Source: an uncultured Kiloniellales bacterium (GTDB lineage: Bacteria; Actinomycetota; Acidimicrobiia; Spongiisociales; UBA5794). From it: 64,000 nt of DNA. Below, one piece after another: positions 1,529 through 47,304 of the stretch; the first letter of the stretch is position 1, and each line of letters begins with the position of its first letter. The position numbers were made by a program, and so were the translations under genes. The stretch spans positions 15,399-79,398 of the forward strand of contig CAXMSN010000067.1 in the NCBI GenBank assembly GCA_964196275.1, written 5' to 3'. The notes under the pieces are model-generated. The model was not told the origin of the DNA, made no database searches, and worked only from the letters and a program-made list of their open reading frames with translations.

Positions 1529-1604
1529 GTAGCCCTCCCGACACGGTGTCCACCGGAGTCGAGACTACTCGCCGCCAGGCTGTCACGAGGCGTCGGAGGC
1601 TGCG

Positions 1605-3275: not shown

Positions 3276-3376
3276 CTTTCGTGTTCTCCTTCGAAACCTG
3301 ATGGTGAAACGCTACCCGGCCGACACGCGTTCCATCTTCTTTGTGGCAACCGCCATGACCTCGGTAGGTTGACTCT

Positions 3377-7864: not shown

Positions 7865-8698
7865 CTACTCGGCTAGAGATTCCTCGGAATCTGGCCGTCT
7901 CCCCCATTCGGAGACGACGATTCCAACCATGATGACCGCGATACCGGCGGCAGCCACCAGCCGTGACTGTGACCTCAGGGACACCGCCAAGGCGTCGTAG
8001 AGATTGCCTATCAAGATCTCCACCTGCGGATCATCCGCGATCCCGATGCTCAGATTCCTCCCACCAGGCACGAGCCATGATGTCGAGAGCGCAGCGAGCG
8101 TCACCGCCGACCCGACCATGACGAGCGAGAACCGCCGCGGACGACTCAGGGACACGATCAGGAAGACCAGAGCGAGGGCGACGATGGCCGCCGCGATCGT
8201 GGTGAAGCGGGCAACCGCGACATAGGGAGATGCGTCTGGGAGTTCGTCTGCATCGATGATGGCGACCGAGTCGAAGAAGTCCGTGGGGATCAGCGCATCG
8301 AGTTCCGGGGCGATCACTCGAAGCGGAGCACGCACGAGATCCTCGATCGAGGTCAGATCGCTCTGAATCGCCCCGTCGTCGCCGTCGATGATCGTTGCAT
8401 GAAGAAGCACGCCCACGTTCGTGAGCACGACCTCGAACTCCGGGGTCTCAAGGATCGCTGCGAACAGCTCGATGAGCGGATCCTCAAGCAGCAGAACGAC
8501 AGGCCTATCGACTGCGAGTTCGTCCACGATGATCTCGGCAACCGCGATACGAGATGACTCCGTCCGCAGGGAAGAGACGGTCGTCTCGACGAACGTCTCG
8601 GTGTCGACGATGTTCCGGTTCACCCAGATGCCCATGTTGACCACGTACAGCATCAGCGCCAGCAGCAACGTTGCGAACACGATGGTCAACCGCCGCAT
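7865..8698 (-). CDS. hypothetical membrane protein
   Basis: I trimmed the 417-aa ORF to ATG-8698 (MRRLTIVFATLLLALMLYVV..). The upstream part is Arg/Cys/Gly-rich low complexity and overlaps the opposite-strand lipoprotein gene. TM segments occur at both ends. Confidence 0.6.
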   Translation of the reverse strand: MRRLTIVFATLLLALMLYVVNMGIWVNRNIVDTETFVETTVSSLRTESSRIAVAEIIVDELAVDRPVVLLLEDPLIELFAAILETPEFEVVLTNVGVLLHATIIDGDDGAIQSDLTSIEDLVRAPLRVIAPELDALIPTDFFDSVAIIDADELPDASPYVAVARFTTIAAAIVALALVFLIVSLSRPRRFSLVMVGSAVTLAALSTSWLVPGGRNLSIGIADDPQVEILIGNLYDALAVSLRSQSRLVAAAGIAVIMVGIVVSEWGRRPDSEESLAE

Positions 8699-8830
8699 GA
8701 TGGCCACGGACTCTCCTTGATCGAATCCGAGACTACCGCCCGCTCGACACCGGTCTTCAGACCGAGTTCGGGAAATCATCCCGTACGTTGGGCTTGTACC
8801 TCGTGGCGCGGTCCGTATCTTGAAATCAAG

Positions 8831-9388
8831 ATGCATGGCACCGTGCGCGTCGCTCTCCTCTTGTTCCTGCTGGCAGGAACCGGCTGCACCACGACCGAAA
8901 CCACCCCCGCAACGACACCCACCAGCATCGCTCCGGTGACGACGGCTGTGCCCGGCACGGTCGTCACCACGACAACATCGACCACGGTCACCACGACCAC
9001 TGCCACCACAACAACAGTTGACCGACTCACAGAGATCGCAGCGATCTTCGAGGACCTCGAGAGACGCCGGCTCCAAGCCATCTTCGACCAGGACGAAGAG
9101 GCGTTCCGTGCCGTCCACGCCAACAAGGAATACCTAGAGGAGAGTCTCGTCGTGCTCGATCTGGCTCAAGTGTCCGATCCGAGTGGCAACTTCCGACAAG
9201 TAGCAATCGCGCTTATAGCCGACGAGGAGGACTGTGTCGCCGCGACTTTGCAACGCGACTACGAGGGGGTGCTCGCTACCGGAGCCGAGACCTCAAAGAC
9301 CTATGTCGCATCCCTCGTGAACGGTGTGTGGGGTCTCGCGTGGGTCGGAGAGGGGTGGGCATGCGACGGGCCGCATCCGCTGTCTTAG
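8831..9388 (+). CDS. lipoprotein with Thr-rich linker
   Basis: Start ATG-8831: 'MHGTVRVALLLFLLAGTGC' (signal peptide plus lipobox Cys), followed by Thr/Pro-rich linkers. Confidence 0.7.
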   Translation: MHGTVRVALLLFLLAGTGCTTTETTPATTPTSIAPVTTAVPGTVVTTTTSTTVTTTTATTTTVDRLTEIAAIFEDLERRRLQAIFDQDEEAFRAVHANKEYLEESLVVLDLAQVSDPSGNFRQVAIALIADEEDCVAATLQRDYEGVLATGAETSKTYVASLVNGVWGLAWVGEGWACDGPHPLS

Positions 9389-10200
9389 CAATCGCCGTAG
9401 CGGGCCTCTGGTTGACTTCGGCCGTGGTGCCCGCACTAGGCGGGGATTGCTGGTTCGACGAAATGGATGGCCAACTCCAGTGCGAGGAATCCGGCGGCGG
9501 GGGAACCCCCTCCGAACAGACACCAGCGCCTACGCCGCGCGTTGGCAAGCGGTACGTCCATCTGACCACCCGGGCTGGTGTTGGCGACTGCTACTACTGG
9601 TCGAATACGGCTGGCGGACTCGATGCGTGGGATTCTGCGAACGATCCGGCGATCATCAACATCGTGCTCCGAACACCCGAGTGCCCGGTGAACGCAGCAC
9701 CGCTCGTGGATGCCGAAGAGACGGCGTGGGCGATTTTCAGATCGTGGCCGCTCGCCGCACCCCAGGTCTCGCTACAGCCAGCCGGTGCAGGCATCACGGG
9801 ACTGCCGACGTACCTCGCAACGCCAACTCCCACTTCCATCTCACACACCGAACTTCTACCCGATGGAAGAACACTCAGGGTGCGTGCGCACATCGAGCAT
9901 CTCGACGTCAGCTGGGGAGACAGTTCGCTTGTGCGGTACCAACCGGCCGGTGCCCTCCCGTTCCCAAGTGGCTCGGTGACGCACACATACCTGCTCAAGA
10001 CGTGCAGCAACGAATACAGGAACAACCACCCATCAGGTGGCCTGTGTCACCCAACACACGACCGGTACCAGATCACGGCGACCTTCTCATGGCTCGCAGA
10101 GTTCACAACAAACGGCGCATGGAACGAACTCGGAACACTGACCCGAACCACCTCCACCAACTACCCCGTAGAAGAAGCCCGCGGCGTCTCGGTCCCGTAG
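9361..10200 (+). CDS. secreted hypothetical protein
   Basis: Start ATG-9361: 'MRRAASAVLAIAVAGLWLTSAVVPALG' (signal peptide). Non-repetitive composition, unlike the overlapping 335-aa Arg/Pro-rich frame. Confidence 0.65.
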   Translation: MRRAASAVLAIAVAGLWLTSAVVPALGGDCWFDEMDGQLQCEESGGGGTPSEQTPAPTPRVGKRYVHLTTRAGVGDCYYWSNTAGGLDAWDSANDPAIINIVLRTPECPVNAAPLVDAEETAWAIFRSWPLAAPQVSLQPAGAGITGLPTYLATPTPTSISHTELLPDGRTLRVRAHIEHLDVSWGDSSLVRYQPAGALPFPSGSVTHTYLLKTCSNEYRNNHPSGGLCHPTHDRYQITATFSWLAEFTTNGAWNELGTLTRTTSTNYPVEEARGVSVP

Positions 10201-10229
10201 AGACGTCTCGACAAGTGCGCAAGCCCCGG

Positions 10230-10327
10230 GATTCCTGGTCTGTCAGCGCGCGCAGCGAAGCGGGTCTGTCGTCTGTTGTGTGTCAGCGAGGTCTGCCGAG
10301 CGGGTCTGAAGCGAGCGCAGCGAGCGC
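10230..10327. repeat. intergenic modular repeat (agcgagcgcagcgagc / ggtctg modules)
   Basis: 'gattcctggtctgtcagcgcgcgcagcgaagcgggtctg..' aligns with 54662..54700, 'gattctggtctgatagcgagcgcagtcagcggatcgga'. It ends in 'gcgagcgcagcgagcgc', a string also found at 56973..56988. Confidence 0.7.
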
Positions 10328-11377
10328 TTAGATCAGATCCTGTTCGCGGATTCCGAAGCTTGGGTGGCGGAGTCTGCAGAGTGCGAGCTTCTCGAGTTGG
10401 CGGATGCGCTCGCGGGTCAGATTGAACTCTTCGCCAATCTCTTCGAGCGTCCGCGGGATTCCGTCGTAGAAGCCATAGCGAAGCGCAAGGATCCGCCCCT
10501 CACGGGTCGGGAGCCTGTCGATCGACTTCCGCAGCGAGTTCGCGATGTCGAGTTCCTCTGTCACCTTGACGGGATCGACGGCATCTTCGTCTTCGATGAA
10601 GTCACCGAGTTGAGCACCGTCCTCACCGATGGGTTGTTCGAGTGAGACCGTGTCGGCAACTGCCAGGGCCAATTCGACCTTCGTCACCTCGACGCCGGCT
10701 TCCTCAGCGATCTCTTCTGGCTTCGGGTCACGTCCGAGTTCGGCTTTGAGAGACGCTTGCGCGGCACGGACCGCAGCGAGCGTGTCATGAAGATGTACAG
10801 GTATGCGGACTGTTCTCGACTTGTCAGCGATCGCTCTTGTGATGGCCTGGCGAATCCACCACGTGGCGTACGTCGAGAATTTGAAACCTTTGCGCCAGTC
10901 GAACTTCTCGACTGCACGGATCAGGCCGAGGTTGCCTTCCTGGATGAGGTCGAGGAAGTCGATGCCAGACGTGTTCGCATACCGCCTTGCGTTTGCGACG
11001 ACCAGCCTGAGGTTCGCTGTAAGGAACGCGTCCTTGGCTTCCATCCCCCGCCGGACCTGACGTCTGAGCAGGATCTCCTCTGACCGCGTCTTGAAGTCGC
11101 CGGTCTCGAGGCGTTCACTGGCGGCCTGACCGCCTTCGATCTTCTGGGCGTAATCGACCTCGTTCTCGGCCGTGAGAAGGTCGAATTGGCCGATGGATGT
11201 GAGGTACTGGGAGACGAGATCGGTGGTGAGTCGCCCCCGGTCATCTGTGAGTTTGGAGCGTTCGCGGTCCTTGAGGCTGCGACTGAGCGTGTCGCGGTCC
11301 ATCCGCTCCTTCGCCTCTTCGCGCTCGCGTTGCGCCTTGTTGACGATGGCCTTTCTCGGCTTTGAACCTGTCGTCAT
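10328..11377 (-). CDS. RNA polymerase sigma-70 factor, group 1/2 (RpoD/SigB-like)
   Basis: 349 aa. Region 2 reads '[43 protein letters not shown]'. Region 4.2 reads '[24 protein letters not shown]'. Confidence 0.93.
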
Positions 11378-11720
11378 CCAACACCCTCCACCAACGTCGA
11401 CGGGAATCCCCCGCGGGCAACGAGATCAGAAGTTTCGAAACACTCGGATCCGCCCGACCAAGGCGTGCTACCCAATATCACACAGGCTCTCCCGTTTGTG
11501 AACCCACTATCTCCTCGGCGGAAGGTATCGAACCCAGCGGATTACCGGCACGTGGGGCTGGCAGAAGACGTCAGACCACAGACCACAGAGATCCGAAGCC
11601 CGAAGTCCGACCAGAGGAGGCAGGCGAGCGAACACGGCTTAAGGAACTGTTCACCTCGGAATCGGAACGTTTGGTCACAGGGTGCAGTTTCATCTGTGAG
11701 GACACCTCGACACGGGAAGA

Positions 11721-12404
11721 TTGGGAGTGGAAGTGAACTGGATCAAAACACATGCGCGCATCGCCGCCGGAGTCGCCGCCGCCGGACTCGCAGGGCTTGT
11801 CTTTCTCGTCGTGTGGTTTCAACCTCAGACGGCGTTCATCGACGACGTCGTAAACGACACGATCCCCGTCGTGGCATCTGAACAGCTGGCTTCAAGCGAC
11901 GACGGAGGTCAGACGACGGACGACGGAACAGAGGCAGAGTCGGAAACACCGCAGGCCGATCCTGCCGAGCCGGATGAGCTGGAAGAAGAGATGGGTGACG
12001 AGATGGAGGATGCGGAGGAGGCTGTAACCGAGCCCGCTGCCGGCGAGGTACCGCCGTCCTTCCCGCTCACCCTCGGCGAGGGAGCCTTCATCGACTTGGC
12101 GCACACAGGCACCGGAGCCGTCAAGGTCATCGAACTCGAGGACGGAACTCGCATTCTGAGATTCGAGGACCTCGACGTGCTCAACGGCCCCGACCTGCGG
12201 GTCATCCTGTCACCGTCAGCGCTCGTTGAAGACGACGGCGCATACGACGACGGAGTGTTCTTCGACCTTGGTCCACTGAAGGGGAATAAGGGAAACCAGA
12301 ACTACGAGATCCCGCCAGAGATCGACCTCGACGACTTCGCAACGGTCGCCATCTGGTGCCGCAGGTTCAACGTATCGTTCAACGCGGCTCCGATCGGATC
12401 CTGA
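11721..12404 (+). CDS. DM13-domain protein, membrane-anchored with acidic linker
   Basis: 227 aa with an N-terminal TM. The C-terminal region reads '..GAVKVIELEDGTRILRFEDLDVLNGPDLRVILS..GNKGNQNYEIP..ATVAIWCRRFNVSFNAAPI', the typical DM13 pattern. Confidence 0.75.
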   Translation: MGVEVNWIKTHARIAAGVAAAGLAGLVFLVVWFQPQTAFIDDVVNDTIPVVASEQLASSDDGGQTTDDGTEAESETPQADPAEPDELEEEMGDEMEDAEEAVTEPAAGEVPPSFPLTLGEGAFIDLAHTGTGAVKVIELEDGTRILRFEDLDVLNGPDLRVILSPSALVEDDGAYDDGVFFDLGPLKGNKGNQNYEIPPEIDLDDFATVAIWCRRFNVSFNAAPIGS

Positions 12405-12468
12405 CAGAGGACCACAGGCCTCAAACCTCAGACCATGCGCGTAGGATTGGGGCACCGAGGAGGTAGAT

Positions 12469-13509
12469 GTGGATCGGGAGAAGACGCTTGCATTCATCGA
12501 TCAGTTCACTGCAATGGCTGCTGGTGCTACGACGATCGGCCTCCTCGCCGTAGCAGACCGAACAGGGCTGCTCAGGTCCATGGCACGAAAGCCAGCCCGA
12601 ACCGTTGACGCGATCGCGGTGGATGCAGGACTCGATCGCCGGTACACCCGTGAGATTCTCTCCGGACTCGTCGCGGCCGGCGTGATCGACTACTCACCGG
12701 CCGATGCCACGTTCGAGCTGAGCGACGAGCACGCCACCGTCCTGGCCGACGATTCTTCTCCGTACTCGATGACGGGTTGGCTCGACATGCTTCCTGCCGC
12801 CCTCGACCACACGGATGAGATCGCTGCCGTCGCGACCAGTGGCGGAGGCGTCCCCTTCTCCTCATATGGGGACCGGATGGTGCGAGGCATAGATCGAGCC
12901 AGCACACCGTCGACGACGATCCTGCTCACGCGGAGATGGCTGCCGACCATGCCCGACGTGGTGGAGCGACTGGCCGCCGGAGGGCGGATCGCGGACGTCG
13001 GCTGCGGTTCAGGGTCCGCCGTCAGAGCAATGGCTCTTGCCTATCCCGATGCACTCGTCGTCGGCTTCGACATCGACGGACCGTCAATCGAGCGGGCGAT
13101 CGCTGGCACATCCGAGTCGAACGCATCATTTATCGTTGGCAGCTCAGATGCGATGACAGACCACGGACCGTTCGACCTGGTGACGCTCTTCGACGTTGTC
13201 CATGACCTTGCAGACCCGCTGGGTGTGCTGCACCAGGTCCGCGAATCTCTGTCCGGCGACGGAGTCATGCTCATGATGGAGCCGAGGATCGCCGCCGACC
13301 TTGAGGACAACATCAACGATCGCGCGGCTCTGCTGTACGGGATCTCGACGTTCCACTGCATGACCCAGTCGCTCGCCCACGACGGAGCAGGCCTCGGCGC
13401 AGCCTGGGGACCGGCAGCTGCCGAAGAACTCTGCCGCGCCGCAGGCTTCACGTCGTTCGAGGAGCTACCCATCGAGAACCCGTTCTCAGCGTTCTTTCGC
13501 GTCGAGTAG
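12469..13509 (+). CDS. class I SAM-dependent methyltransferase with N-terminal winged-helix dimerisation domain
   Basis: 346 aa with a GTG start after GAGGAGG. SAM motif 'IADVGCGSGSAVRAMA..VVGFDID'. Confidence 0.85.
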   Translation: MDREKTLAFIDQFTAMAAGATTIGLLAVADRTGLLRSMARKPARTVDAIAVDAGLDRRYTREILSGLVAAGVIDYSPADATFELSDEHATVLADDSSPYSMTGWLDMLPAALDHTDEIAAVATSGGGVPFSSYGDRMVRGIDRASTPSTTILLTRRWLPTMPDVVERLAAGGRIADVGCGSGSAVRAMALAYPDALVVGFDIDGPSIERAIAGTSESNASFIVGSSDAMTDHGPFDLVTLFDVVHDLADPLGVLHQVRESLSGDGVMLMMEPRIAADLEDNINDRAALLYGISTFHCMTQSLAHDGAGLGAAWGPAAAEELCRAAGFTSFEELPIENPFSAFFRVE

Positions 13510-13599
13510 TCCCAGCCAGGATCGGAGTTCGGTTCTCGCCTCCGGGTTGATCTCCCCAAATCCCAGTGGTTATTGGGGTTCGCCGTATCCTTTCGAACC

Positions 13600-14634
13600 A
13601 TGACACAGACCTCGTCGAGCCTCCCTGTTTGCATCCATTGCGGCACTCCCAGACCAGCAGATGAGACCCAATGTCCGTCGTGCGGGAAGCCGTGGATCGA
13701 CGTTCTCGTCGCGGACGTGCCGCCCGTCGTGCCGCCTGTTGTGCCGCCTGCCGAGCCCGCTGCTGCACCGGTCAATGCAGCCGTCGCTGCCGCAGCCACA
13801 GCCGAGCTGGTCACGGGCGATGACGACCCACCCCTGTCGCCACACGACACAGGCGAATTCGGACTCGACGAATGGACGCTGCCACCCGAGCCACCGAAGA
13901 ATCGACCGCTCTGGCTGATTCCCGTTGTTCTCGTCTTTGCCGTCTTGGGATTCTGGGCGTACGTTTACTACGCCGACTCAGGGACATCAACAACGACCGT
14001 CGTCGCTGAACCATCGACGTCAACGTCCACTGCACCATCTGCCACAACCACAGTGGCAGCACTGGCGACCGAATCGACGACTACCACCGCTCCGCCAACG
14101 ACCACGACGACGCTCCCCTATCCATCTGCCGCAGCATGGGAAGAGTCAGGTCAGGGGATCTCGACGGCCCTCCTCAAGATGAAGGCCTCTGGGCTCGGCC
14201 CGATTGACATCGGCAGCTCACTCGCCGACGTGAGCGGCCAGCTCGTAGCGAGTCTCGGCCCGGCGGAGTCAGCGGGCGACGCCGACTTGTGCCAGCCTGA
14301 AGAGGCGTACTGGCTGCAGTGGGGACCGCTGAGAGTGATCTTCGACGGATGGGAGCCCACCTCCACCTTCGTCGGCTACCAATACGCCGAAGCCGATGCA
14401 GGCGAGACGAACGTCCCACTCACGACCCTGTCCGGGCTACGACTCGCAGATACCGTCGCTGAACTACAGGCGACCTACAACTTCTACACGGTGACCTTCG
14501 AGGTCATCGAAGGCCAGGACTATTTCCGCCTGGTCGACGGCGGGGAGCTATTGCTGTGGGGCCCTGTCTCAAGTACCGACCCCACCGGTACAGTTCTCGG
14601 GATCTACTCACCGTCGCCTTGCCCGGCGAGCTGA
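13600..14634 (+). CDS. zinc-ribbon / TM / Thr-rich linker protein with conserved extracytoplasmic C-terminal domain ('domain X')
   Basis: Start ATG-13600: 'MTQTSSSLPVCIHCGTPRPADETQCPSCGKPW' (CxxC..CxxC). It has one TM ('LWLIPVVLVFAVLGFWAYVYY'). The C-terminal domain is paralogous to that of 16668..17594. Confidence 0.75.
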   Translation: MTQTSSSLPVCIHCGTPRPADETQCPSCGKPWIDVLVADVPPVVPPVVPPAEPAAAPVNAAVAAAATAELVTGDDDPPLSPHDTGEFGLDEWTLPPEPPKNRPLWLIPVVLVFAVLGFWAYVYYADSGTSTTTVVAEPSTSTSTAPSATTTVAALATESTTTTAPPTTTTTLPYPSAAAWEESGQGISTALLKMKASGLGPIDIGSSLADVSGQLVASLGPAESAGDADLCQPEEAYWLQWGPLRVIFDGWEPTSTFVGYQYAEADAGETNVPLTTLSGLRLADTVAELQATYNFYTVTFEVIEGQDYFRLVDGGELLLWGPVSSTDPTGTVLGIYSPSPCPAS

Positions 14635-20114: not shown

Positions 20115-21938
20115 ATGCCAGCTGATGTCTCAACACTCGCGGAGCTGTACTCACAGAGCGTCGCCGCCTTCCCTGATAATCCTCTTTTCGGAAACCGCAC
20201 GCCTGACGGGACATGGGAGTGGATGAGCTATCGCGAGTTCGGCGAAGCGATCGACAAGGCTCGCGGCGGACTCCAATCGCTTGGTGTCACCAATGGTGAC
20301 CGCGTCGCGATCATCTCGGACAACAGGACCGAATGGGCCGTTGGCGCATATGCCGCATACAGCCTCGGCGCCGCCTGGGTGCCGATGTACGAAGCCCAAA
20401 CGCAGAAGGACTGGAAGTTCATCCTCAAGGATTCAGGCGCCAAGGTCCTGTTCGTAGCAACAGACGGTATCCGTGCCCAGATCGAAGAGATCCAGGGCGA
20501 GATCGAGTCGCTTGAGTCGGTCATCGTGATCGACGATCCGGCTGGAGGCAAGGCGATCGATTACACCGAGCTCCTCGCCCGTGGTGCGGCCAACCCTGCT
20601 GGTTCAGCCGTTGTGAAGCCGAACGATCTGGCCGGACTCATCTACACGTCAGGTACCACCGGGAATCCCAAGGGCGTGATGCTGTCCCATGCGAACATCA
20701 CCTCGAACCTCAATGCGCTGTCGGTGATCTTCCCTCTTGAGGAAGAAGACCGCTCCGCATCGTTCCTCCCATGGGCACACTCGTTCGGTCAGACCGTTGA
20801 ACTGCATGCACTCATCTTCTTCGGCTCATCGACCGGGTTGACAAGCGCAAGGACGCTCATCCGTGACATGCCTGAGATTCACCCGACCATCCTCGTGGCC
20901 GTGCCGACGGTCTTCAACAAGGTCTACGACGGCCTGCAGAAGATGATGGAGGAGAAAGGCGGGATCACGAAGAAGCTCTTCGACGCAGCCATCGCCAATG
21001 CGCACAAGCGCAATGAGATGACCCAAAGGGGTGCCAAGAGCAAGCTCGTGGATATGAAGCACAACCTGTTCGACTCGCTGGTCTTCTCGAAGGTCAGAGC
21101 GAGCTTCGGCGGCAAGGTGCGCTACGCGTTCTCTGGTGGCGCAGCCATCTCGACAGAGGTTGCCGAGTTGATCTCAGCCGTGGGAATCACGGTGTATGAG
21201 GGCTACGGGCTTACCGAGACAAGCCCGATCGTGACCTGCAACATCAAGCAAGCACGACGGATCGGCTCTGTCGGCCGTGCGATCCCCGGCGTGACAGTGA
21301 CCATCGATACCGAGGTCACCGGCGACAAGGAGATCGGTGAGATCGTCGTCCACGGGCCAAACGTCATGGTGGGCTACTACCACCTGCCTGAGGCCAACGA
21401 CGAGGTCTTCACCCACGATCGCGGCTTCCGAACGGGCGACCTTGGGCATGTCGATGCGGATGGCTACCTGTACATCCGTGGGCGCATCAAGGAGCAGTAC
21501 AAGCTTGAGAATGGCAAGTACGTCGTGCCGTCACCGATCGAGGAGATCCTGACGCTGTCGGGCTACATCCTCCAGGTCATGGTCTACGGCGAACAGCGAC
21601 CCCACAACGTGGCGGTGATCATCCCCGACTTCGACTACCTCGGGAAATGGGCAGCGGAGAACGGAGTCGATGCATCCGACCCTGAGGCGCTGATCGCAGA
21701 CGACCGGGTGATCGAACTGTTCAAGACCGAGGTCAACCGTGCGCAGAGCGACATCAAACACTATGAGCGGATCAGAGACTTCATCCTTGCCACCGAAGAG
21801 TGGACACCGGAGAACGGCATGCTCACGCCGTCATTGAAGATCAAGCGGCGGACACTCATGGCCCAGTTCGGCGAAGGGATCAACGAGCTGTACGCCGGCG
21901 ACGATCCTCTGCTCGGCAGGGACACACAGACGAAGTAG
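20115..21938 (+). CDS. fadD: long-chain fatty-acid--CoA ligase (AMP-dependent synthetase)
   Basis: 607 aa. AMP-binding motifs 'LIYTSGTTGNPKGVMLSH', 'GYGLTETS' and 'GDLG..DADGYLYIRGRIK'. Confidence 0.92.
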   Translation: MPADVSTLAELYSQSVAAFPDNPLFGNRTPDGTWEWMSYREFGEAIDKARGGLQSLGVTNGDRVAIISDNRTEWAVGAYAAYSLGAAWVPMYEAQTQKDWKFILKDSGAKVLFVATDGIRAQIEEIQGEIESLESVIVIDDPAGGKAIDYTELLARGAANPAGSAVVKPNDLAGLIYTSGTTGNPKGVMLSHANITSNLNALSVIFPLEEEDRSASFLPWAHSFGQTVELHALIFFGSSTGLTSARTLIRDMPEIHPTILVAVPTVFNKVYDGLQKMMEEKGGITKKLFDAAIANAHKRNEMTQRGAKSKLVDMKHNLFDSLVFSKVRASFGGKVRYAFSGGAAISTEVAELISAVGITVYEGYGLTETSPIVTCNIKQARRIGSVGRAIPGVTVTIDTEVTGDKEIGEIVVHGPNVMVGYYHLPEANDEVFTHDRGFRTGDLGHVDADGYLYIRGRIKEQYKLENGKYVVPSPIEEILTLSGYILQVMVYGEQRPHNVAVIIPDFDYLGKWAAENGVDASDPEALIADDRVIELFKTEVNRAQSDIKHYERIRDFILATEEWTPENGMLTPSLKIKRRTLMAQFGEGINELYAGDDPLLGRDTQTK

Positions 21939-21950
21939 AGGCAGAGAACC

Positions 21951-21993
21951 AAAACGACAGCGGGGCCGCATATCGCGGCCCCGCTGTCGTTTT
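21951..21993. terminator. bidirectional intrinsic terminator (19-bp perfect stem)
   Basis: 'aaaacgacagcggggccgc-atatc-gcggccccgctgtcgtttt'. A-run and T-run flanks give a U-tract on both strands. It sits between the fadD stop (21938) and the 3' end of tRNA-Sec. Confidence 0.9.
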
Positions 21994-22087
21994 GGCGGAG
22001 GCGGACGGGAATCGAACCCGCCAGGGAACTTTCGCCCCCTCGTCGGTTTTGAAGACCGCGACGTCCACCAGGCACGCAATCGCCTCC
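21993..22087 (-). tRNA. selC: tRNA-Sec (anticodon UCA), 95 nt with encoded CCA
   Basis: The minus strand reads GGAGGCGATTGCGTGCCTGGTGGACGTCGCGGTCTTCAAAACCGACGAGGGGGCGAAAGTTCCCTGGCGGGTTCGATTCCCGTCCGCCTCCGCCA. Its features:
- Anticodon loop CUUCAAA (UCA).
- 8-position acceptor stem (7 bp plus A.C), discriminator G and CCA.
- 5-bp T stem with loop TTCGATT.
- ~7-bp variable arm closed by a GAAA tetraloop.
- D-arm with a 4-nt loop (UGGU). Confidence 0.9.
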
Positions 22088-22119
22088 ACGAGCAAGGGTA
22101 CTTCGCATAGGATTGATGC

Positions 22120-22551
22120 ATGACTCGCACCTTCCAAGTGACGTTCGATGCGCACGACCCGGCCGCACTCGCGGCCTTTTGGGCCAAGGCGCTGGGATAC
22201 GACGTTGAGCCTCCTCCGGACGGATTCGAGACATGGGCGGACTATGCCGACGAGATCGGGCTGCCCATGGAGGATCGCAACAGCCTCGCCGCCGCCATCG
22301 ACCCAAGTGGCGATGGCCCGAGGCTCCTGTTCCAGATGGTCCCTGAGTCGAAGGTCTCCAAGAACCGTGTCCATCTCGATATTGATGTCGCAGATCCCAC
22401 TGCCGCGGCTGAACATCGTGAGGCAGCAATCGATGCCGAAGTCACGCGGCTCGTGGCCCTCGGAGCAACCAAGATCGCTGTCCACGGGAGCGAGCATCAG
22501 ACGTGGACGGTGATGCAGGACCCCGAGGGCAATGAGTTCTGCGTCCAGTAA
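22120..22551 (+). CDS. VOC/glyoxalase-like domain protein
   Basis: 143 aa. 'FQVTFDAHDPAALAAFWAKALGY..NRVHLDIDV..VMQDPEGNEFCV' is the typical glyoxalase-like pattern. Confidence 0.75.
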   Translation: MTRTFQVTFDAHDPAALAAFWAKALGYDVEPPPDGFETWADYADEIGLPMEDRNSLAAAIDPSGDGPRLLFQMVPESKVSKNRVHLDIDVADPTAAAEHREAAIDAEVTRLVALGATKIAVHGSEHQTWTVMQDPEGNEFCVQ

Positions 22552-22622
22552 CAAGGGTTGTATGGAGTGGCGTCTCACTCTCACTATGCTCCATCGGACT
22601 ACTCGCGAACGCAGGGAAGAGC

Positions 22623-22931
22623 ATGGCTGACGCAACGTTGATGGTGTGGATCGATCAGGATCTGTGCACCGGTGATGGAATCTGTGAAGAGATCGCACCC
22701 GACGTATTCCAAGCACGCGACGACGGCCTGTGGGTCGTCAAGGAAGCCGCTTCTGTGTGGGGCGCCGACATCGTCTTCGATGGCGAGCAAGCGCCAGACG
22801 GAAGCCGCGGCGTTGCCCGGGTTCCCGATGACCAGCTCGACATCGTTGTCGAAGCGGCCGAGGAATGCCCCGGCGAGTGCATCATGATCGAGCCGTTCGA
22901 CCAGGACACGTTCGCCAAGCGCGGCGGCTGA
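22623..22931 (+). CDS. ferredoxin ([3Fe-4S]-type CxxDxxC...CP)
   Basis: 102 aa. 'DQDLCTGDGICEEIAPDVF' plus a distal 'ECPGECI'. Confidence 0.85.
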   Translation: MADATLMVWIDQDLCTGDGICEEIAPDVFQARDDGLWVVKEAASVWGADIVFDGEQAPDGSRGVARVPDDQLDIVVEAAEECPGECIMIEPFDQDTFAKRGG

Positions 22932-22937
22932 GAACGA

Positions 22938-24017
22938 TCAGGTCTCGGGTGGCGGCGCTCTCCGCTGCGACTCGTCTGCCTTATGGATCGCCCCATGGAT
23001 GGCCCTGTGGTGACTTCTACAGAGCAGACGCGTGTTGTCAAGTGACGTCGACCCACCGTTCGCCCAGTGGATGATGTGGTGGGCATCACACCACGACGCC
23101 GGTGCCGTGCACCCGGTCCATGTGCACCCACCATCCCGCATCTCGAGAGCCCGTCTGAGTGACGGCGGGATCGTCCGCACCCGCCTGCCGACGTCGATCG
23201 GCTGAGATTCGGAGTCGATGAGCATGCGGACGACGCCAGCATCGCACAGCATGCGTTTGATGGCTTCCAGGTCAACCGGGGATCCGTCGATCTCGGAAAG
23301 TCGTTGTCTGTCACCCACGAGCGTTGCGTAATCGATGGTGATCGTTGCATGCGGCTTCTCGCCACCCGATGTCCTCACCGACTGATTGTGGTCCAGCCAG
23401 AACCGGCAGATATCCACCAGAGCGTCAGCCCGACGCTGTCTCGGCGAGCGTGACTCAGCTGCATCGATGTTGGATGCGTGAACGAGGGAGTTCAGCGCTG
23501 TATCAATGAAGTGGCCACCTTCAGGTGCAAACGTGCCCTTGGTCGCCCATAGGCCCTCGAACGTCTGATCGTGGTGGAACCCGCGGAGCGCCTCGAGCTT
23601 CTTGGCGTCAGCGAGTGCATCGTCATAGTTGACCTGCTGTTCCCAGTGACCGATGGCCCGTCTCAGATCCTTGAGAGAGAGATATGTGGCGGTGTCTGCG
23701 AACACCTGCTCATGGATGGCGAATTCATCTGGGTAGCGATCCCTCGCTTGGCTGAGAAGTTGCACAGATCGCGACGGAACCTTTCCGTTGAGTGCGTTCC
23801 TCGTCACCGTTGGCATGTGGGAGAGGGCTCGTGCCACCTTGAGGGTTCCCGACGCCTCGCCCGACGACATGTAGCAGCGCTGCATCAACCAATTCGTCGT
23901 GGAGATCCGATGGTCCAGCACGGGTAACGCCCGGTCGTCGAGTTCCTTGACATGGATGGCAAGGAGAGCCGACACGGCATCGATGTGCTGCTTGAGACCG
24001 ACGACCGCCTGCTTCAA
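22938..24017 (-). CDS. DUF222 / HNH endonuclease (13E12-repeat-type). The N-terminus is apparently frameshifted, with the ancestral ATG at 24139.
   Basis: 359-aa ORF from TTG-24017. The HNH region reads 'CTWTGCTAPASWCDAHHIIHWANGGSTSLDNTRLLCRSHHRAIH'. Removing one copy of the 14-bp duplication at 24039..24066 joins it in-frame to ATG-24139 (MTNQNLAPCRAMVSIEDGEPLATQIQEHVDRLPNEALKQAVV..). Confidence 0.85.
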   Translation of the reverse strand: MKQAVVGLKQHIDAVSALLAIHVKELDDRALPVLDHRISTTNWLMQRCYMSSGEASGTLKVARALSHMPTVTRNALNGKVPSRSVQLLSQARDRYPDEFAIHEQVFADTATYLSLKDLRRAIGHWEQQVNYDDALADAKKLEALRGFHHDQTFEGLWATKGTFAPEGGHFIDTALNSLVHASNIDAAESRSPRQRRADALVDICRFWLDHNQSVRTSGGEKPHATITIDYATLVGDRQRLSEIDGSPVDLEAIKRMLCDAGVVRMLIDSESQPIDVGRRVRTIPPSLRRALEMRDGGCTWTGCTAPASWCDAHHIIHWANGGSTSLDNTRLLCRSHHRAIHGAIHKADESQRRAPPPET

Positions 24018-24038
24018 CGCCTCATTGGGCAGACGATC

Positions 24039-24066
24039 GACGTGCTCTTGTAGACGTGCTCTTGTA
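24039..24066. repeat. perfect 14-bp tandem duplication (gacgtgctcttgta x2)
   Basis: Read directly from the sequence. It lies in the 5' region of the DUF222/HNH gene. The length is not a multiple of 3. Confidence 0.95.
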
Positions 24067-24151
24067 TCTGTGTGGCGAGTGGCTCGCCGTCCTCAATCGA
24101 GACCATCGCCCGGCATGGAGCCAAGTTCTGGTTTGTCATCTCACTATGGTA

Positions 24152-24167
24152 TCGAACATATGTTCGA
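24152..24167. promoter_or_regulatory. LexA SOS box (TCGAACATATGTTCGA)
   Basis: A perfect palindrome matching the mycobacterial/actinobacterial consensus TCGAAC-N4-GTTCGA. It lies 12 nt upstream of ATG-24139 of the HNH gene (minus strand). TACCAT at -12..-7 is a possible leaderless -10 element. The box is 124 nt upstream of TTG-24292 on the plus strand. Confidence 0.7.
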
Positions 24168-24291
24168 TTGTCAAGGCGGTACTTGCACCAGCTCCCTGTA
24201 CGCCATCGGCCTCGATAGATCGCACGCCCGCCATGTCCCTCGCGTATGCTTGAGCCGCCGCGGTGACGCGGGATGGGAAGGAAGACGCCTC

Positions 24292-25131
24292 TTGGAACCA
24301 GTCATAGCTGAACCACAGGCCCGAGAGCGCTCCTTCGTGCCACGACTGCCGTTCGACTCGTTCAGTGGCTTGGTACGGCACATCACGGCCGCTGGTCTCT
24401 CGGGATTGATCGCGGGCGTAATCGTTGGAGGAGTCGGCGGCCGCCTGTTCATGCGGATCGCAGGAGCGATCGCCAGTGACATCGCTCAGGGCAGATCTAC
24501 CGAAGCGGGCTTCACGGTCGGCGAGGTTACCGCTGGCGGAACCATCGGGTTGATCATCTTCCTTGGGATCTTCAGTGGTCTTTTCGGTGCCGTGTTCTAC
24601 GTGGCTCTCTTCCCATGGCTCACATGGTCAGGACGGTGGCGCGGCCTCGCCTTTGGAGTGACGATGTTCGCCGCGGTCAGCGCCACATCAGACCTGATGA
24701 ACCCCGACAACATCGACTTCTTCATCCTCAAGAACGAGCCGGTCTTGGTCGGCTTGATAGTCGCCCTGATCGTCGCATTCGGTCTGGTACTCGATGCGTC
24801 CTACCGCGTCATCGACCGGCGGCTGCCACCGCCTGACGTCAACGTGAACATCGTCTATTACGTTCTTTCAGCGGTCGGGTTGACATTCGTCGGTTTTGCC
24901 TTGCTCGCCCTCTTCACCGATCCCTGCGACTGCGAGCCACCAAGAGGCGTCGCATGGTCGATGGTCGTTGTCCTGGCTGGCACAGCGGCGTTGTGGCTCT
25001 CCGTCCTGCTCACGTCGCCACCCAAATGGCTCGGTTGGGCATCCACAGTCATCGGCTATCTCGGCGCCGCTGGCGTGCTGGTATTCGGGCTGATCCGCGC
25101 CGTCTCTGATGCAGTGGATATCATCCGCTAG
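24292..25131 (+). CDS. hypothetical polytopic membrane protein, tandem paralogue A
   Basis: I trimmed the 410-aa ORF to TTG-24292 (GGGAAGGAAGA SD, 6 nt spacer), by analogy with the paralogue's N-terminus. Shared blocks are 'RHITxAGxxGLxAGxxVxGxGxRLFMRxA', 'DIAQGRxTEAGFTVGEVTxGGTI', 'FYVALFPWL', 'DLMNPDNIDFxILKNEP' and 'CxCxPPxGVAWSM'. Confidence 0.65.
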   Translation: MEPVIAEPQARERSFVPRLPFDSFSGLVRHITAAGLSGLIAGVIVGGVGGRLFMRIAGAIASDIAQGRSTEAGFTVGEVTAGGTIGLIIFLGIFSGLFGAVFYVALFPWLTWSGRWRGLAFGVTMFAAVSATSDLMNPDNIDFFILKNEPVLVGLIVALIVAFGLVLDASYRVIDRRLPPPDVNVNIVYYVLSAVGLTFVGFALLALFTDPCDCEPPRGVAWSMVVVLAGTAALWLSVLLTSPPKWLGWASTVIGYLGAAGVLVFGLIRAVSDAVDIIR

Positions 25132-25197
25132 CCGGGACCGCACTACCCCTTCCATCGCAGATCTCACGATGTACGGTTGACAATGGAGAGGGAAGGC

Positions 25198-26043
25198 TTC
25201 GTGGAATCCGCACGCACCGAAACGGAGACGCCGAACGACCCGCGTGCGCCCAAAGCTCCGTTCACGACGTTTGCCGGCCTTACCCGCCACATCACGATCG
25301 CTGGGTTTGCTGGGCTGGTGGCCGGCATCACGGTTGCAGGACTCGGGAGCAGGCTGTTCATGCGGATGGCGAGTTTCATCGCTGACGACATCGCACAGGG
25401 CCGAACCACCGAGGCAGGCTTCACCGTCGGCGAGGTGACCTTCGGAGGAACGATCGAACTCATCATCTTCATCGGGCTGTTCTCCGGATTGCTCGCGGCT
25501 GTGTTCTACGTCGCTCTCTTTCCATGGCTGGCATGGGCTGGCCCAGCGCGCGGCGTCGCCTTCGGAATGCTGGGTTTCGCGGCCACGAGCGCCACGACCG
25601 ACCTCATGAACCCGGACAACATCGACTTTGTAATCCTCAAGAACGAGCCGATCGTCGTCGCGATGATTTTCGTTCTGTTCGTCGTCTTTGGTTCCGTCTT
25701 CGACGCTGCGTACCGCGTCATCGATCGATACACGCCGGAGCCGGACCGCAACGTGAACGCCGTCTTCTACACGTTCGCCCTCATGGGCACCATGTTCGTA
25801 CTCCTCGCCGCAGTCACACTCTTCACACGCGAAAGCTGCAACTGTGATCCGCCAATGGGCGTGGCATGGTCGATGCTCGTAGCCGCCATCGCCACGATCG
25901 CGTTGTGGGTCTCTGTGCTCATCGCAAGCTCGCCGAGACGGCTCGGGCGGGCATCCACAGTCGTCGGCTATCTCGGAACAGCCGGTGTGCTGATCTTCGG
26001 CCTGATCCGCGCACTCTCGGATGCCGCTGAGATCATCGGCTGA
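25198..26043 (+). CDS. hypothetical polytopic membrane protein, tandem paralogue B
   Basis: The ORF is open from 25177. GTG-25198 is preferred (GAGGGAAGG SD, same context as paralogue A). Roughly two-thirds identical to 24292..25131 by eye. Confidence 0.7.
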   Translation, partial: FVESARTETETPNDPRAPKAPFTTFAGLTRHITIAGFAGLVAGITVAGLGSRLFMRMASFIADDIAQGRTTEAGFTVGEVTFGGTIELIIFIGLFSGLLAAVFYVALFPWLAWAGPARGVAFGMLGFAATSATTDLMNPDNIDFVILKNEPIVVAMIFVLFVVFGSVFDAAYRVIDRYTPEPDRNVNAVFYTFALMGTMFVLLAAVTLFTRESCNCDPPMGVAWSMLVAAIATIALWVSVLIASSPRRLGRASTVVGYLGTAGVLIFGLIRALSDAAEIIG

Positions 26044-26058
26044 CAGCGTGTTCCCGAC

Positions 26059-26490
26059 TCAGCCTGTGATGTAGCTCTCCAGCTGCTCGATGAGGAACTC
26101 TTGCTCCTCGATCACCGCACGCACGACATCGCCGATCGAGATCACACCCAGAAGCTTCCCTTCGTCCACGACGGGGAGGTGACGAAATCGGTTGTCCGTC
26201 ATGAGCGCCATACACGCGCCAACCGTGTCTGAGGGAGTGACGGTGACAGGGTCGGGTGTCATGATCTCGGCCACATGTGTCTCTCGAGAACTCTTGTTCT
26301 GCAACACGACCTTGCGGGCGTAGTCACGCTCAGACACGATTCCAACGAGATCCCCGTCGGTCACCACGACGAGCGCACCGATGTTCTTGTCCGCAAGCAT
26401 GGAGAGGGCATCGAACACCGACATGTCGCCAGGAACACTCCAGATGTCCTGACCCTTGAAGGCGAGAATGTTGCCAACCGTCTTCTGCAT
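26059..26490 (-). CDS. CBS-pair domain protein
   Basis: 143 aa with two CBS repeats ('..ALSMLADKNIGALVVVTDGDLVGIVSERD..', '..ALMTDNRFRHLPVVDEGKLLGVISIGD..'). Confidence 0.88.
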   Translation of the reverse strand: MQKTVGNILAFKGQDIWSVPGDMSVFDALSMLADKNIGALVVVTDGDLVGIVSERDYARKVVLQNKSSRETHVAEIMTPDPVTVTPSDTVGACMALMTDNRFRHLPVVDEGKLLGVISIGDVVRAVIEEQEFLIEQLESYITG

Positions 26491-46053: not shown

Positions 46054-46135
46054 CTCTCTCCTTGTCGCTTCCACCAGAGTAGATGGCGTCGGCGGACCGC
46101 ACGCAATGGCCGGCTCATCGACTACTTTCCTTGTA

Positions 46136-47194: not shown

Positions 47195-47304
47195 AGGACC
47201 GCTTGATAGATGGATTGCATCGGATAGGCTGAAAGTGCTGGGTCGCTTGTCGACCCTCTGCGGACCCCCTCGTCCCCCCTGGGGGGTCCGCAAATCAAGC
47301 AGTG

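What the first reader, a model, noticed from the sequence alone, without database searches (positions are those of the whole stretch)
21993..22087. tRNA-Sec (selC) at a fadD / VOC-gene junction, away from any other sel gene
- A 95-nt minus-strand tRNA has the anticodon loop CUUCAAA (anticodon UCA, which reads UGA).
- It has G at the discriminator position and an encoded CCA.
- The acceptor arm has 8 positions and the T stem is 5 bp (the bacterial 8/5 Sec architecture).
- The D loop is 4 nt, and a ~7-bp variable arm is capped by a GAAA tetraloop.
- This is direct evidence that the organism recodes UGA as Sec. It underpins the reinterpretation of the three in-frame TGAs in this window.
- The acceptor pair A8.C84 and a bulge in the D stem are slightly unusual.
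Basis: partly seen in the sequence, partly recalled or inferred. Interest (0 to 1): 0.6.

Follow-up and report, generated by a model that had tools for sequence, protein, structure and literature searches.

The report
Genuine selenocysteine tRNA gene (selC)
This is a real but ordinary selenocysteine tRNA gene in an uncultured Acidimicrobiia bacterium whose genome also holds the other genes needed to read UGA as selenocysteine; its small structural oddities are shared by its whole lineage and match an actinobacterial tRNA-Sec variant already described.

Summary
ARAGORN calls tRNA-SeC(tca) at exactly 21993..22087 (-), and Rfam tRNA-Sec scores 70.4 bits against a cut-off of 47. It is the only hit above cut-off in the genome, a 2.09-Mb Acidimicrobiia MAG.

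- **Machinery:** selA and selB sit side by side on another contig. selD lies in this same window (46136..47194) and has UGA at the catalytic Cys position (SHGAGUACK). "Away from any other sel gene" is therefore only partly right.
- **Conservation:** the gene is in 37 of 41 relatives of the order and 174 of 251 sampled genomes of the phylum. Twelve base pairs show compensatory changes.
  - G15 is an invariant D-stem bulge.
  - Position 8 is A or U and never pairs with the invariant C84 (0 of 126 distinct sequences).
  - C84 can always pair with G66. The likely fold is 7-bp acceptor plus 6-bp T stem (13 bp), as published in 2026 for mycobacteria. An 8/5 fold with a mismatch is not excluded.
- **Extras:**
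  - A TAnnnT -10 box sits at -13..-8 in 136 of 142 upstream sequences.
  - The VOC gene is an insertion specific to this genome.
  - The locus is a small hotspot for rearrangement within the genus.

Verdict: confirmed, supported, ordinary.

The parts
21993..22087 (-). tRNA-Sec gene (selC), 95 nt including the encoded CCA; anticodon UCA, discriminator G
   Evidence: ARAGORN. Rfam RF01852 at 70.4 bits against a cut-off of 47. It is the only hit above cut-off in the genome. Covariation in 24 relatives supports the fold.
22095..22100 (-). TACCCT, a -10-like hexamer (TAnnnT) at -13..-8 from tRNA G1; inferred selC promoter
   Evidence: TAnnnT starts at -18..-11 in 136 of 142 distinct upstream sequences of this tRNA-Sec type, and at exactly -13 in 103 of them. 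Position -1 is a pyrimidine in 135 of 142. Promoter function is inferred, not shown.
21949..21995 (.). Perfect 21-bp inverted repeat with a 5-nt loop, A-tract on one side and T-tract on the other; likely a bidirectional terminator for fadD (+) and selC (-). Its last 3 bp include the tRNA's CCA.
   Evidence: the repeat finder I1. The terminator scan hits the inner part. Sequence read.
20115..21938 (+). FadD-like acyl-CoA ligase, convergent with selC; the conserved neighbour on the 3' side in the genus
   Evidence: Pfam AMP-binding, 281.8 bits. Best NCBIfam hit is FadD11-like, below cut-off. Synteny in G001, G003, G004, G005, G010 and G015.
22120..22551 (+). Glyoxalase_6/VOC gene, divergent from selC with its start codon 32 nt from tRNA G1; an insertion specific to this genome. 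TAGGAT at 22108..22113 lies 6 nt before the ATG, a leaderless-type arrangement (inferred).
   Evidence: Pfam PF18029, 105.4 bits. No tblastn hit at the selC locus of any relative, where 110-140 nt separate selC from the ferredoxin gene.
22623..22931 (+). Small 4Fe-4S ferredoxin gene; the conserved neighbour on the 5' side of selC across the genus and part of the family
   Evidence: Pfam Fer4_15, 55.4 bits. tblastn gives 70-90% identity next to selC in 10 relatives.
46136..47194 (+). selD (selenophosphate synthetase) with in-frame TGA at 46178..46180 (residue 15, SHGAGUACK); a client of this tRNA and also part of the Sec machinery
   Evidence: TIGR00476 at 402.7 bits with 1 TGA inside. The TGA=U translation scores 408.9 bits from residue 5. 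Translation shown.

Best explanation
The 95-nt minus-strand gene at 21993..22087 is the single functional selC gene (tRNA-Sec, anticodon UCA) of an uncultured Acidimicrobiia bacterium.

Mechanism, from established knowledge of the bacterial Sec pathway:
- SerRS charges the tRNA with serine, using G73 and the long variable arm as identity elements.
- SelA converts Ser to Sec, using selenophosphate made by SelD.
- SelB delivers Sec-tRNA-Sec to in-frame UGA codons that are followed by a SECIS hairpin.
- All three protein genes are in the genome, and selD is itself a UGA-containing client.

Structure. The tRNA keeps the Sec hallmarks: a 13-layer acceptor/T helix, a 6-bp D stem with a 4-nt loop, a 6-bp anticodon stem and a 7-bp variable arm. 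It has three lineage-fixed variations:
- G15 is bulged in the D stem.
- One nucleotide (45 or 46) is bulged in the 3' strand of the anticodon stem.
- Position 8 never pairs with C84.

The most likely fold (about 60%) is a 7-bp acceptor plus a 6-bp T stem, with G66-C84 as the extra T-stem pair and A8 in a 3-nt linker. This is the actinobacterial variant described for mycobacteria. The alternative is an 8/5 fold with a non-Watson-Crick 8:84 layer.

Transcription (inferred). It probably starts at or within 1-2 nt of the mature 5' end, from a TAnnnT -10 box at -13..-8, and stops at the adjacent 21-bp hairpin.
For: **Identity**
- ARAGORN calls tRNA-SeC.
- Rfam gives 70.4 bits against a cut-off of 47, over the full model length.
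- It is the only hit above cut-off in the genome.

**Machinery**
- selA and selB are adjacent at C112:931-4021, both above curated cut-offs and without internal stops.
- selD is in the window, with U at the catalytic Cys position.
- selA is in 38 of 41 relatives and tRNA-Sec in 37 of 41.
- tRNA-Sec is in 174 of 251 sampled genomes of the phylum.

**Structure**
- On 24 sequences, 95.7% of cells form pairs.
- 12 pairs change on both sides; 0 of 500 shuffles reach this, and slid controls give 0-3.
- G15, C28, G47, G66 and C84 are invariant.

**7/6 fold**
- Among 126 distinct sequences with C84, position 8 is U (69) or A (57) and never G.
- G66-C84 is always possible.
- One relative has U84, which keeps G66.U84 but not U8.U84 (L225).
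- Other Actinomycetota lineages with G84 have C8 or U8, the canonical 8/5.
- The ViennaRNA minimum-free-energy fold draws a 6-bp T stem with G66-C84.
- PMC13449736 reports a 7-bp acceptor plus 6-bp T stem for mycobacterial tRNA-Sec, with the same 5' GGAGGCG.

**Promoter**
- TAnnnT lies at the conserved distance in 136 of 142 upstream sequences.

**Terminator**
- A perfect 21-bp inverted repeat abuts the 3' end.
Against: - There is no expression, charging or Se-incorporation evidence.
- G66 and C84 are invariant within the lineage, so the 66:84 pair has no true compensatory change. The only variant is one G.U.
- G66 is also conserved in lineages where it cannot pair with 84 (G84 or A84 states). 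Its conservation therefore does not by itself prove pairing.
- Several Actinomycetota lineages have G8/A84 or G8/G84, where neither 8:84 nor 66:84 is a standard pair. A non-Watson-Crick 8:84 layer in an 8/5 fold is thus also tolerated in the phylum.
- The single-sequence fold is only modestly better than shuffles (z -2.16), as is usual for tRNAs in G+C-rich DNA.
- The genome is an 83%-complete MAG. Linkage of the selAB contig to this contig rests on binning (contamination 0.41%) and on co-occurrence in relatives.
Confidence: 0.96

Rival explanations
1. It is a genuine tRNA-Sec with the classical bacterial 8/5 fold. A8 and C84 form a non-Watson-Crick layer (for example a protonated A+.C wobble) at the base of an 8-layer acceptor stem. 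G66 is an unpaired linker, as in E. coli.
For: - Eight nucleotides lie between the 5-bp T stem and G73, the same spacing as in canonical 8/5 tRNA-Sec.
- Sister Actinomycetota lineages have C8-G84 or U8.G84 at the homologous positions, with G66 present but unable to pair.
- Other lineages carry G8/A84 or G8/G84, which shows that a non-standard 8:84 layer is tolerated.
- Rfam aligns the tRNA with a 9/4-style model at 70.4 bits, pairing A8 with U83 and leaving C84 unmatched.
Against: - 0 of 126 distinct C84 sequences has G8, the one change that would restore a pair. Position 8 switches freely between A and U, and U.C cannot form a wobble.
- G66-C84 is available in every such sequence and is used in the minimum-free-energy fold.
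- The U84 variant keeps 66:84 but not 8:84.
- The 7/6 reading is published for mycobacteria.
Confidence: 0.35
2. It is not a Sec tRNA but a tRNA-Sec look-alike: a selC*-type tRNA-Cys(UCA) opal suppressor or an allo-tRNA, as described by Mukai et al. (PMC5389517).
For: It has a UCA anticodon, a long variable arm and a long D stem, features it shares with those look-alikes.
Against: - The discriminator is G, whereas selC* tRNA-Cys has U73.
- The acceptor/T domain has 13 layers, whereas allo-tRNAs have 12 (8/4 or 9/3).
- It is the only tRNA-Sec candidate in a genome that has selA, selB and a Sec-dependent selD.
- It scores 23 bits above the tRNA-Sec cut-off.
Confidence: 0.02
3. It is a decaying or silent relic (a pseudo-tRNA), no longer used.
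For: There is a non-paired 8:84 position, a bulge in the D stem and another in the anticodon stem. The gene sits among genome-specific insertions.
Against: - The same 'defects' are invariant across more than 120 genomes, and stems keep pairing through compensatory changes.
- selD in the same window would be truncated after 14 codons without this tRNA.
- The promoter-like -10 box is retained at the conserved distance.
Confidence: 0.02

Closest known systems
Mycobacterial tRNA-Sec, the 7-bp acceptor / 6-bp T-stem variant (RNA Biol 2026, PMC13449736)
   Same: Same phylum and the same 5' strand GGAGGCG. The tRNA is about 95 nt, with a 13-bp acceptor/T domain split 7 + 6, G73, a long variable arm, and variation at the acceptor/D junction and in the D stem.
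   Different: - That paper covers the genus Mycobacterium and places selC in a model with selA/selB expression. Here selC is unlinked from selAB. They are 170-405 kb apart on the same contig in two near-complete genus members, and selC sits between fadD and a ferredoxin gene.
- Whether mycobacteria share the invariant G15 bulge was not checked.
E. coli selC / Aquifex aeolicus tRNA-Sec, the canonical bacterial 8/5 tRNA-Sec (Rfam RF01852; structure PMC3711452)
   Same: UCA anticodon, G73, 13-bp acceptor/T helix, 6-bp D stem with a 4-nt loop, 6-bp anticodon stem, long variable arm, and a T stem that opens with G.U. As in E. coli, selC is separate from selAB and selD.
   Different: - The 8th acceptor pair (C-G in E. 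coli, recalled from the known sequence) is replaced by A/U facing C.
- One nucleotide is bulged in the D stem.
- One nucleotide is bulged in the 3' strand of the anticodon stem.
Non-canonical bacterial tRNA-Sec variants catalogued by Secmarker (PMC5330540) and Mukai et al. (PMC5389517)
   Same: Those surveys already list bulges in the D stem (13a), in the anticodon stem (43a) and in the acceptor stem, plus an extra linker nucleotide (7a) in bacterial tRNA-Sec. They include actinobacterial cases such as Rubrobacter and the 8/4 types of Actinobacteria and Chloroflexi.
   Different: Those variants mostly have a 12-bp acceptor/T domain, with 7 nt between the T stem and G73. This one keeps 8 nt there and 13 layers.

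Membership tests
Bacterial tRNA-Sec (selC; Rfam RF01852) | Scores above the curated threshold of a dedicated tRNA-Sec model | tested here: met
   RF01852 gives 70.4 bits against a gathering score of 47, covering model positions 1-91 of 91. ARAGORN calls tRNA-SeC. tRNAscan-SE and Secmarker were not available.
Bacterial tRNA-Sec (selC; Rfam RF01852) | Anticodon UCA in a 7-nt loop | tested here: met
   The loop is CUUCAAA at tRNA positions 34-40. It is invariant in 24 relatives.
Bacterial tRNA-Sec (selC; Rfam RF01852) | 13-bp acceptor + T-stem domain (8/5 in bacteria) | tested here: inconclusive
   Thirteen layers are present: 7 Watson-Crick acceptor pairs, the position 8/84 layer, and 5 T-stem pairs. 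However, 8:84 is never a standard pair (0 of 24; 0 of 126). A 7 + 6 split through G66-C84 also gives 13 true pairs. The length criterion is met. The 8/5 split is probably not.
Bacterial tRNA-Sec (selC; Rfam RF01852) | Long D stem (6 bp) with a 4-nt D loop, the SelA recognition element | tested here: met
   There are 6 pairs (11-14 with 24-27, and 16-17 with 22-23) around UGGU, with an invariant bulged G15. Three of the pairs show compensatory changes and 100% of cells are paired.
Bacterial tRNA-Sec (selC; Rfam RF01852) | Long variable arm and G73 discriminator, the SerRS identity elements | tested here: met
   The variable stem has 7 bp plus a GAAA loop, and 5 of its pairs show compensatory changes. 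G92 (= G73) is invariant.
Bacterial tRNA-Sec (selC; Rfam RF01852) | Co-occurrence with selA, selB and selD in the genome | tested here: met
   selA scores 394.1 bits, selB 317.2 bits and selD 402.7 bits, all above curated cut-offs.
Bacterial tRNA-Sec (selC; Rfam RF01852) | Genome contains genes with in-frame UGA at a known Sec/Cys position | tested here: met
   selD reads SHGAGUACK, with U at the catalytic Cys position. The MerB-like cyclase with two TGAs (341..1564, minus strand) was only partly checked: its MerB/SaoL hits are weak (E 2e-7 to 3e-6), well below the curated cut-offs.
Bacterial tRNA-Sec (selC; Rfam RF01852) | Serylation by SerRS, Ser-to-Sec conversion by SelA, binding by SelB, and expression of the tRNA | not testable with these tools
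   These are biochemical properties.
selC* tRNA-Cys / allo-tRNA (tRNA-Sec look-alikes, PMC5389517) | U73 discriminator (selC*) or a 12-bp 8/4 or 9/3 acceptor/T domain (allo-tRNA) | tested here: not met
   The discriminator is G. [quoted passage not shown]

The most novel reading that the evidence does not exclude
The Acidimicrobiia-type tRNA-Sec, together with the same type in many other Actinomycetota families, has two linked properties. It folds 7/6 rather than 8/5. It is also transcribed from a -10 box fixed at -13..-8, so that the primary transcript begins at the mature G1. That would make it a 'leaderless' tRNA whose 5' end needs little or no RNase P processing. This would sidestep the unusual RNase P cleavage that creates the 8-bp acceptor stem in E. 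coli.
Probability: 0.25. Interest if true: 0.4.

Novelty: already known. Interest (0 to 1): 0.15.

Why it matters
**What it settles for this genome**
- The organism decodes UGA as selenocysteine. In-frame TGAs at Cys-equivalent positions, in selD here and in other candidates elsewhere in the genome, should be read as Sec. ORF callers truncate or split such genes.

**Beyond this genome**
- tRNA-Sec genes are routinely found by standard annotation tools, so the gene itself matters little.
- The trait is widespread in this lineage: 37 of 41 relatives of the order and 174 of 251 sampled genomes of the phylum.

**Small added value**
- The 7/6-type acceptor/T arrangement, recently reported for mycobacteria, appears to be the commonest state across Acidimicrobiia. 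It also occurs in many other Actinomycetota families.
- A promoter box at a fixed distance from the tRNA's 5' end is conserved across the lineage.

Tried and rejected
1. **Heuristic scans for more selenoprotein genes in the window.**
   - I looked for TGA-spanning frames with high GC3 on both sides. In this 61% G+C DNA the scans were too noisy.
   - Eight candidates went to Pfam. One gave only the GpsA domains downstream of its TGA. One (46000-47300) was in the wrong frame for selD. The other six gave nothing.
   - No new selenoprotein is claimed from these scans.
2. **Classical island integration at selC in this genome.** I looked for an integrase or a direct repeat of the tRNA 3' end. No repeat of the tRNA end lies within 21800..26200, and the neighbours include no integrase. 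I rejected this for the window. The DUF222-HNH gene nearby is a separate small insertion.
3. **SECIS after the selD UGA.** A fold of 46172..46235 gives two short hairpins with z = -2.0. This is compatible with a SECIS but not decisive, and I did not pursue it.
4. **Sigma-70 consensus promoter scan.** It found nothing. The actinobacterial TAnnnT pattern was then found by comparing sequences.
6. **ARAGORN boundaries.** ARAGORN mis-registered 12 relatives' tRNAs by 2 nt at the 5' end. I re-registered these by hand to the A8/G66/C84 class.
7. **Parser limits.** Five phylum sequences (L206-208, L238-239) have only 7 nt between the T stem and G73 (12-bp types). My parser mis-registered them, so they were left out of the 8/66/84 tally.

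Full report
**1. Observation**

The minus strand of 21993..22087 reads GGAGGCGAUUGCGUGCCUGGUGGACGUCGCGGUCUUCAAAACCGACGAGGGGGCGAAAGUUCCCUGGCGGGUUCGAUUCCCGUCCGCCUCCGCCA.
- ARAGORN finds exactly one tRNA in the 64-kb window: tRNA-SeC, anticodon tca, at these coordinates.
- The Rfam tRNA-Sec covariance model (RF01852) matches 21997..22087 over its full length. The score is 70.4 bits against a gathering score of 47, with E 2.3e-12. It is the only Rfam family above threshold in the window.
  - the CUUCAAA anticodon loop
  - a G discriminator and an encoded CCA
  - a 4-nt D loop
  - a 5-bp T stem
  - a 7-bp variable arm capped by GAAA
  - A8 facing C84
  - a bulge (G15) in the D stem

**2. The genome and the rest of the machinery**

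The window is C67:15399-79398 of a 2.09-Mb, 139-contig assembly estimated 82.75% complete and 0.41% contaminated. All but a few of the roughly 80 titles listed are Acidimicrobiia, Actinomycetota or Actinomycetes MAGs, so the organism is an uncultured Acidimicrobiia bacterium.

Within the genome:
- This is the only tRNA-Sec hit above cut-off.
- selA (394.1 bits, cut-off 267.9) and selB (317.2 bits, cut-off 242.25) lie side by side at C112:931-4021, without internal stops.
- selD (402.7 bits, cut-off 125) lies inside the window and contains one in-frame TGA.
- Translated with TGA=U from the ATG at 46136, selD reads MESPRLTAYSHGAGUACKLGP... and matches TIGR00476 from residue 5 at 408.9 bits.
- From established knowledge of SelD, the U sits at the catalytic Cys of the SHGAGC(G/A)CK loop.

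The title's "away from any other sel gene" needs correcting, because selD is about 24 kb away in the same window.

In two near-complete genomes of the genus, selC and selA lie 170 kb (G004) and 405 kb (G006) apart on one contig. Separation of selC from selAB is thus the genus norm, as it is in E. coli.

**3. Conservation and structure**

tRNA-Sec is above cut-off in 37 of 41 relatives of the same order and in 174 of 251 evenly drawn genomes of the phylum. selA is in 38 of 41 relatives.

I aligned 24 tRNA-Sec sequences from the genus, family and order and counted pairs for an explicit cloverleaf.
- 95.7% of cells form standard pairs, against 87.8% in shuffles.
- 12 pairs show changes on both sides. 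None of 500 shuffles reaches this, and slid controls give 0-3.
- Compensatory changes occur in the acceptor stem (C6-G86 to U6-A86), the D stem (3 pairs), the anticodon stem (3 pairs) and the variable arm (5 pairs).

This is a tRNA under purifying selection for its fold, not a relic.

**4. The "slightly unusual" features**

They are not peculiar to this gene.

*D stem.* G15 is invariant. It always interrupts a D stem whose outer four pairs covary.

*Anticodon stem.* C28 and G47 are invariant and can close a 6-bp anticodon stem, with one nucleotide (45 or 46) bulged on the 3' side. In this genus, either G29-C46 forms with A45 bulged (the minimum-free-energy fold), or G29.A45 is a mismatch.

*Position 8.* It is A or U in all 24 sequences and never pairs with the invariant C84.

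I extended this to 133 distinct tRNA-Sec sequences extracted with ARAGORN.
- 126 have C84. Of these, 69 have U8 and 57 have A8, after re-registering 12 mis-bounded calls.
- None has G8, the single change that would restore an 8th acceptor pair.
- In all of them G66 can pair with C84, which extends the T stem to 6 bp.

Forty further sequences from other Actinomycetota families show several states:

| State | Position 8 | Position 66 | Position 84 | Sequences | Reading |
|---|---|---|---|---|---|
| Same as here | A or U | G | C | 15 | 66:84 can pair, 8:84 cannot |
| U84 variant (L225) | U | G | U | 1 | G66.U84 possible, U8.U84 not |
| Canonical | C | G | G | 7 | 8/5; 66:84 impossible |
| G/A | G | G | A | 8 parsed, plus one read by eye | neither is a standard pair |
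| G/G | G | G | G | 2 | neither is a standard pair |

The remaining sequences are one C8/A84 case and five 12-bp types that my parser mis-registered.

The simplest reading is that the 13-bp acceptor/T helix is kept in two registers. One is 8/5 with C8-G84. The other is 7/6 with G66-C84 and position 8 released into a 3-nt linker.

A 2026 paper reaches the same 7-bp acceptor / 6-bp T-stem conclusion for mycobacterial tRNA-Sec, which begins with the same GGAGGCG (PMC13449736). Earlier surveys already list D-stem (13a), anticodon-stem (43a) and acceptor-stem bulges and extra linker nucleotides among bacterial tRNA-Sec (PMC5330540; PMC5389517).

Caveats:
- G66 and C84 do not covary within the lineage.
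- G66 is conserved even where it cannot pair with 84.
- The G8/A84 lineages show that a non-standard 8:84 layer is tolerated.

I therefore put 7/6 at about 0.6 and 8/5-with-mismatch at about 0.35.

**5. Look-alikes excluded**

selC*-type tRNA-Cys opal suppressors have U73, and allo-tRNAs have 12-bp 8/4 or 9/3 domains. This tRNA has G73 and 13 layers. It is also the only candidate in a genome that has SelA, SelB and a Sec-dependent selD.

**6. Transcription signals (inferred)**

- Upstream of G1, a TAnnnT hexamer starts at -18..-11 in 136 of 142 distinct upstream sequences of this tRNA type, and at exactly -13 in 103 of them.
- Position -1 is C or T in 135 of 142.
- In the window the hexamer is TACCCT at 22100..22095.
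- TAnnnT is the actinobacterial -10 consensus (established knowledge). With its last T at -8, transcription would start at or within 1-2 nt of the mature 5' end.
- At the 3' end, a perfect 21-bp inverted repeat (21949-21969 / 21975-21995) is flanked by A and T tracts. It abuts the tRNA and includes its CCA in the stem. It can serve as a terminator for both selC and the convergent fadD.
- The encoded CCA is present in only 2 of 7 genus members, so it is not a conserved trait.

**7. Context**

The genus-wide gene order is LytR-like, three ORFs, HTH, fadD (+), selC (-), ferredoxin (+), CBS (-), enoyl-CoA hydratase, then DAO oxidoreductase.

This genome has two insertions that are absent from the six genus relatives compared over a wide region.
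- The Glyoxalase_6/VOC gene (22120..22551) sits between selC and the ferredoxin gene, where five of the six relatives have only 110-140 nt (G003 has its own, different insert there).
- A block of about 3.1 kb (22938..26043) sits between the ferredoxin and CBS genes. It holds a DUF222-HNH gene and two paralogous unknown ORFs.

The "fadD / VOC junction" in the finding's title is therefore specific to this genome. The conserved junction is fadD / ferredoxin.

The VOC start codon lies 32 nt from tRNA G1 on the other strand and is preceded by TAGGAT (22108..22113) 6 nt upstream. This is the arrangement expected for a leaderless mRNA (inference).

Other genus members show further changes at the locus.
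- G003 has a different insert of about 0.8 kb at the same place.
- G006 has a 6.0-kb block of glycosyl- and methyltransferase genes bounded by perfect 117-nt direct repeats, starting right after the selC 3' end.
- G010 has an inverted selC.
- No integrase was found at any of these.

**8. Limits**

tRNAscan-SE and Secmarker were not available. The SECIS of selD was only glanced at. Notes from earlier agents of this scan mention further selenoprotein genes in the genome. Apart from selD, and partly the MerB-like cyclase, I did not re-test them and do not lean on them.

**9. Verdict**

It is an ordinary selC gene of the actinobacterial type. Standard tools detect it, and the machinery in the genome is complete. 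Its minor structural deviations are lineage-wide and already covered by published descriptions. Interest is low. The small extras are the breadth of the 7/6-type junction across Acidimicrobiia and the fixed-distance -10 box.

Noticed in passing
window 22120..22551 (VOC) and 22938..26043 (DUF222-HNH, o410, o288): Both blocks are insertions specific to this genome within an otherwise conserved genus-wide gene order (fadD-selC-ferredoxin-CBS-ECH-DAO). A 7-nt repeat, CAAGGGT, flanks the VOC gene, at 22093..22099 and just after its stop codon. This could be a target duplication or chance.
   Followed up: partly
window 23899..25131 and 25177..26043: Two adjacent ORFs (410 and 288 aa, no Pfam hit) are diverged tandem paralogues. 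Direct repeats of 300, 142 and 45 nt occur at a spacing of 909-912 nt with 70-82% identity.
   Followed up: no
L049 (G006:C1) 8097..14235: In a genus relative, a 6.0-kb block lies immediately 3' of selC, between it and fadD. It carries a GT4 glycosyltransferase and three methyltransferase-like genes and is bounded by perfect 117-nt direct repeats. It contains no integrase.
   Followed up: partly
L050 (G010:C83) 3208..3298: In one genus relative the selC gene is inverted relative to fadD and the ferredoxin gene, so it lies on the same strand as both. It has its own TAGGCT box upstream. This could be a small local inversion or an assembly artefact.
   Followed up: no
upstream of tRNA-Sec in L018-L172 and window 22095..22100: A TAnnnT hexamer sits at -13..-8 and a pyrimidine at -1 in about 96% of 142 distinct upstream sequences. 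This implies that tRNA-Sec primary transcripts in Acidimicrobiia start at or next to the mature 5' end.
   Followed up: partly
window 22108..22122: The VOC gene has TAGGAT 6 nt before its ATG and no room for a Shine-Dalgarno leader. The spacer to the tRNA is only 32 nt, so this looks like a leaderless mRNA promoter placed back to back with the selC promoter.
   Followed up: no
window 341..1564 (-): An ORF with two in-frame TGAs (1252, 1054) joins a MerB/SaoL-like N-terminal region to an adenylate-cyclase domain. The MerB/SaoL hits are weak (E 2e-7 to 3e-6, below cut-offs), while the cyclase domain scores 190.7 bits to the LipJ C-terminus. An earlier agent has already followed this up.
   Followed up: partly
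L047 (G004:C3) about 7925..7970, between fadD and selC: A tandem heptamer array, (GGACGAC)n, followed by a GTCTGAC/T-rich repeat, fills the fadD-selC spacer in a genus relative. In the window this place is occupied by the 21-bp terminator hairpin.
   Followed up: no
L206-L208 and L238-L239 (other Actinomycetota families): These tRNA-Sec genes have only 7 nt between the T stem and G73. They are 12-bp acceptor/T types like those reported by Secmarker, and they coexist in the phylum with the 13-layer types.
   Followed up: no
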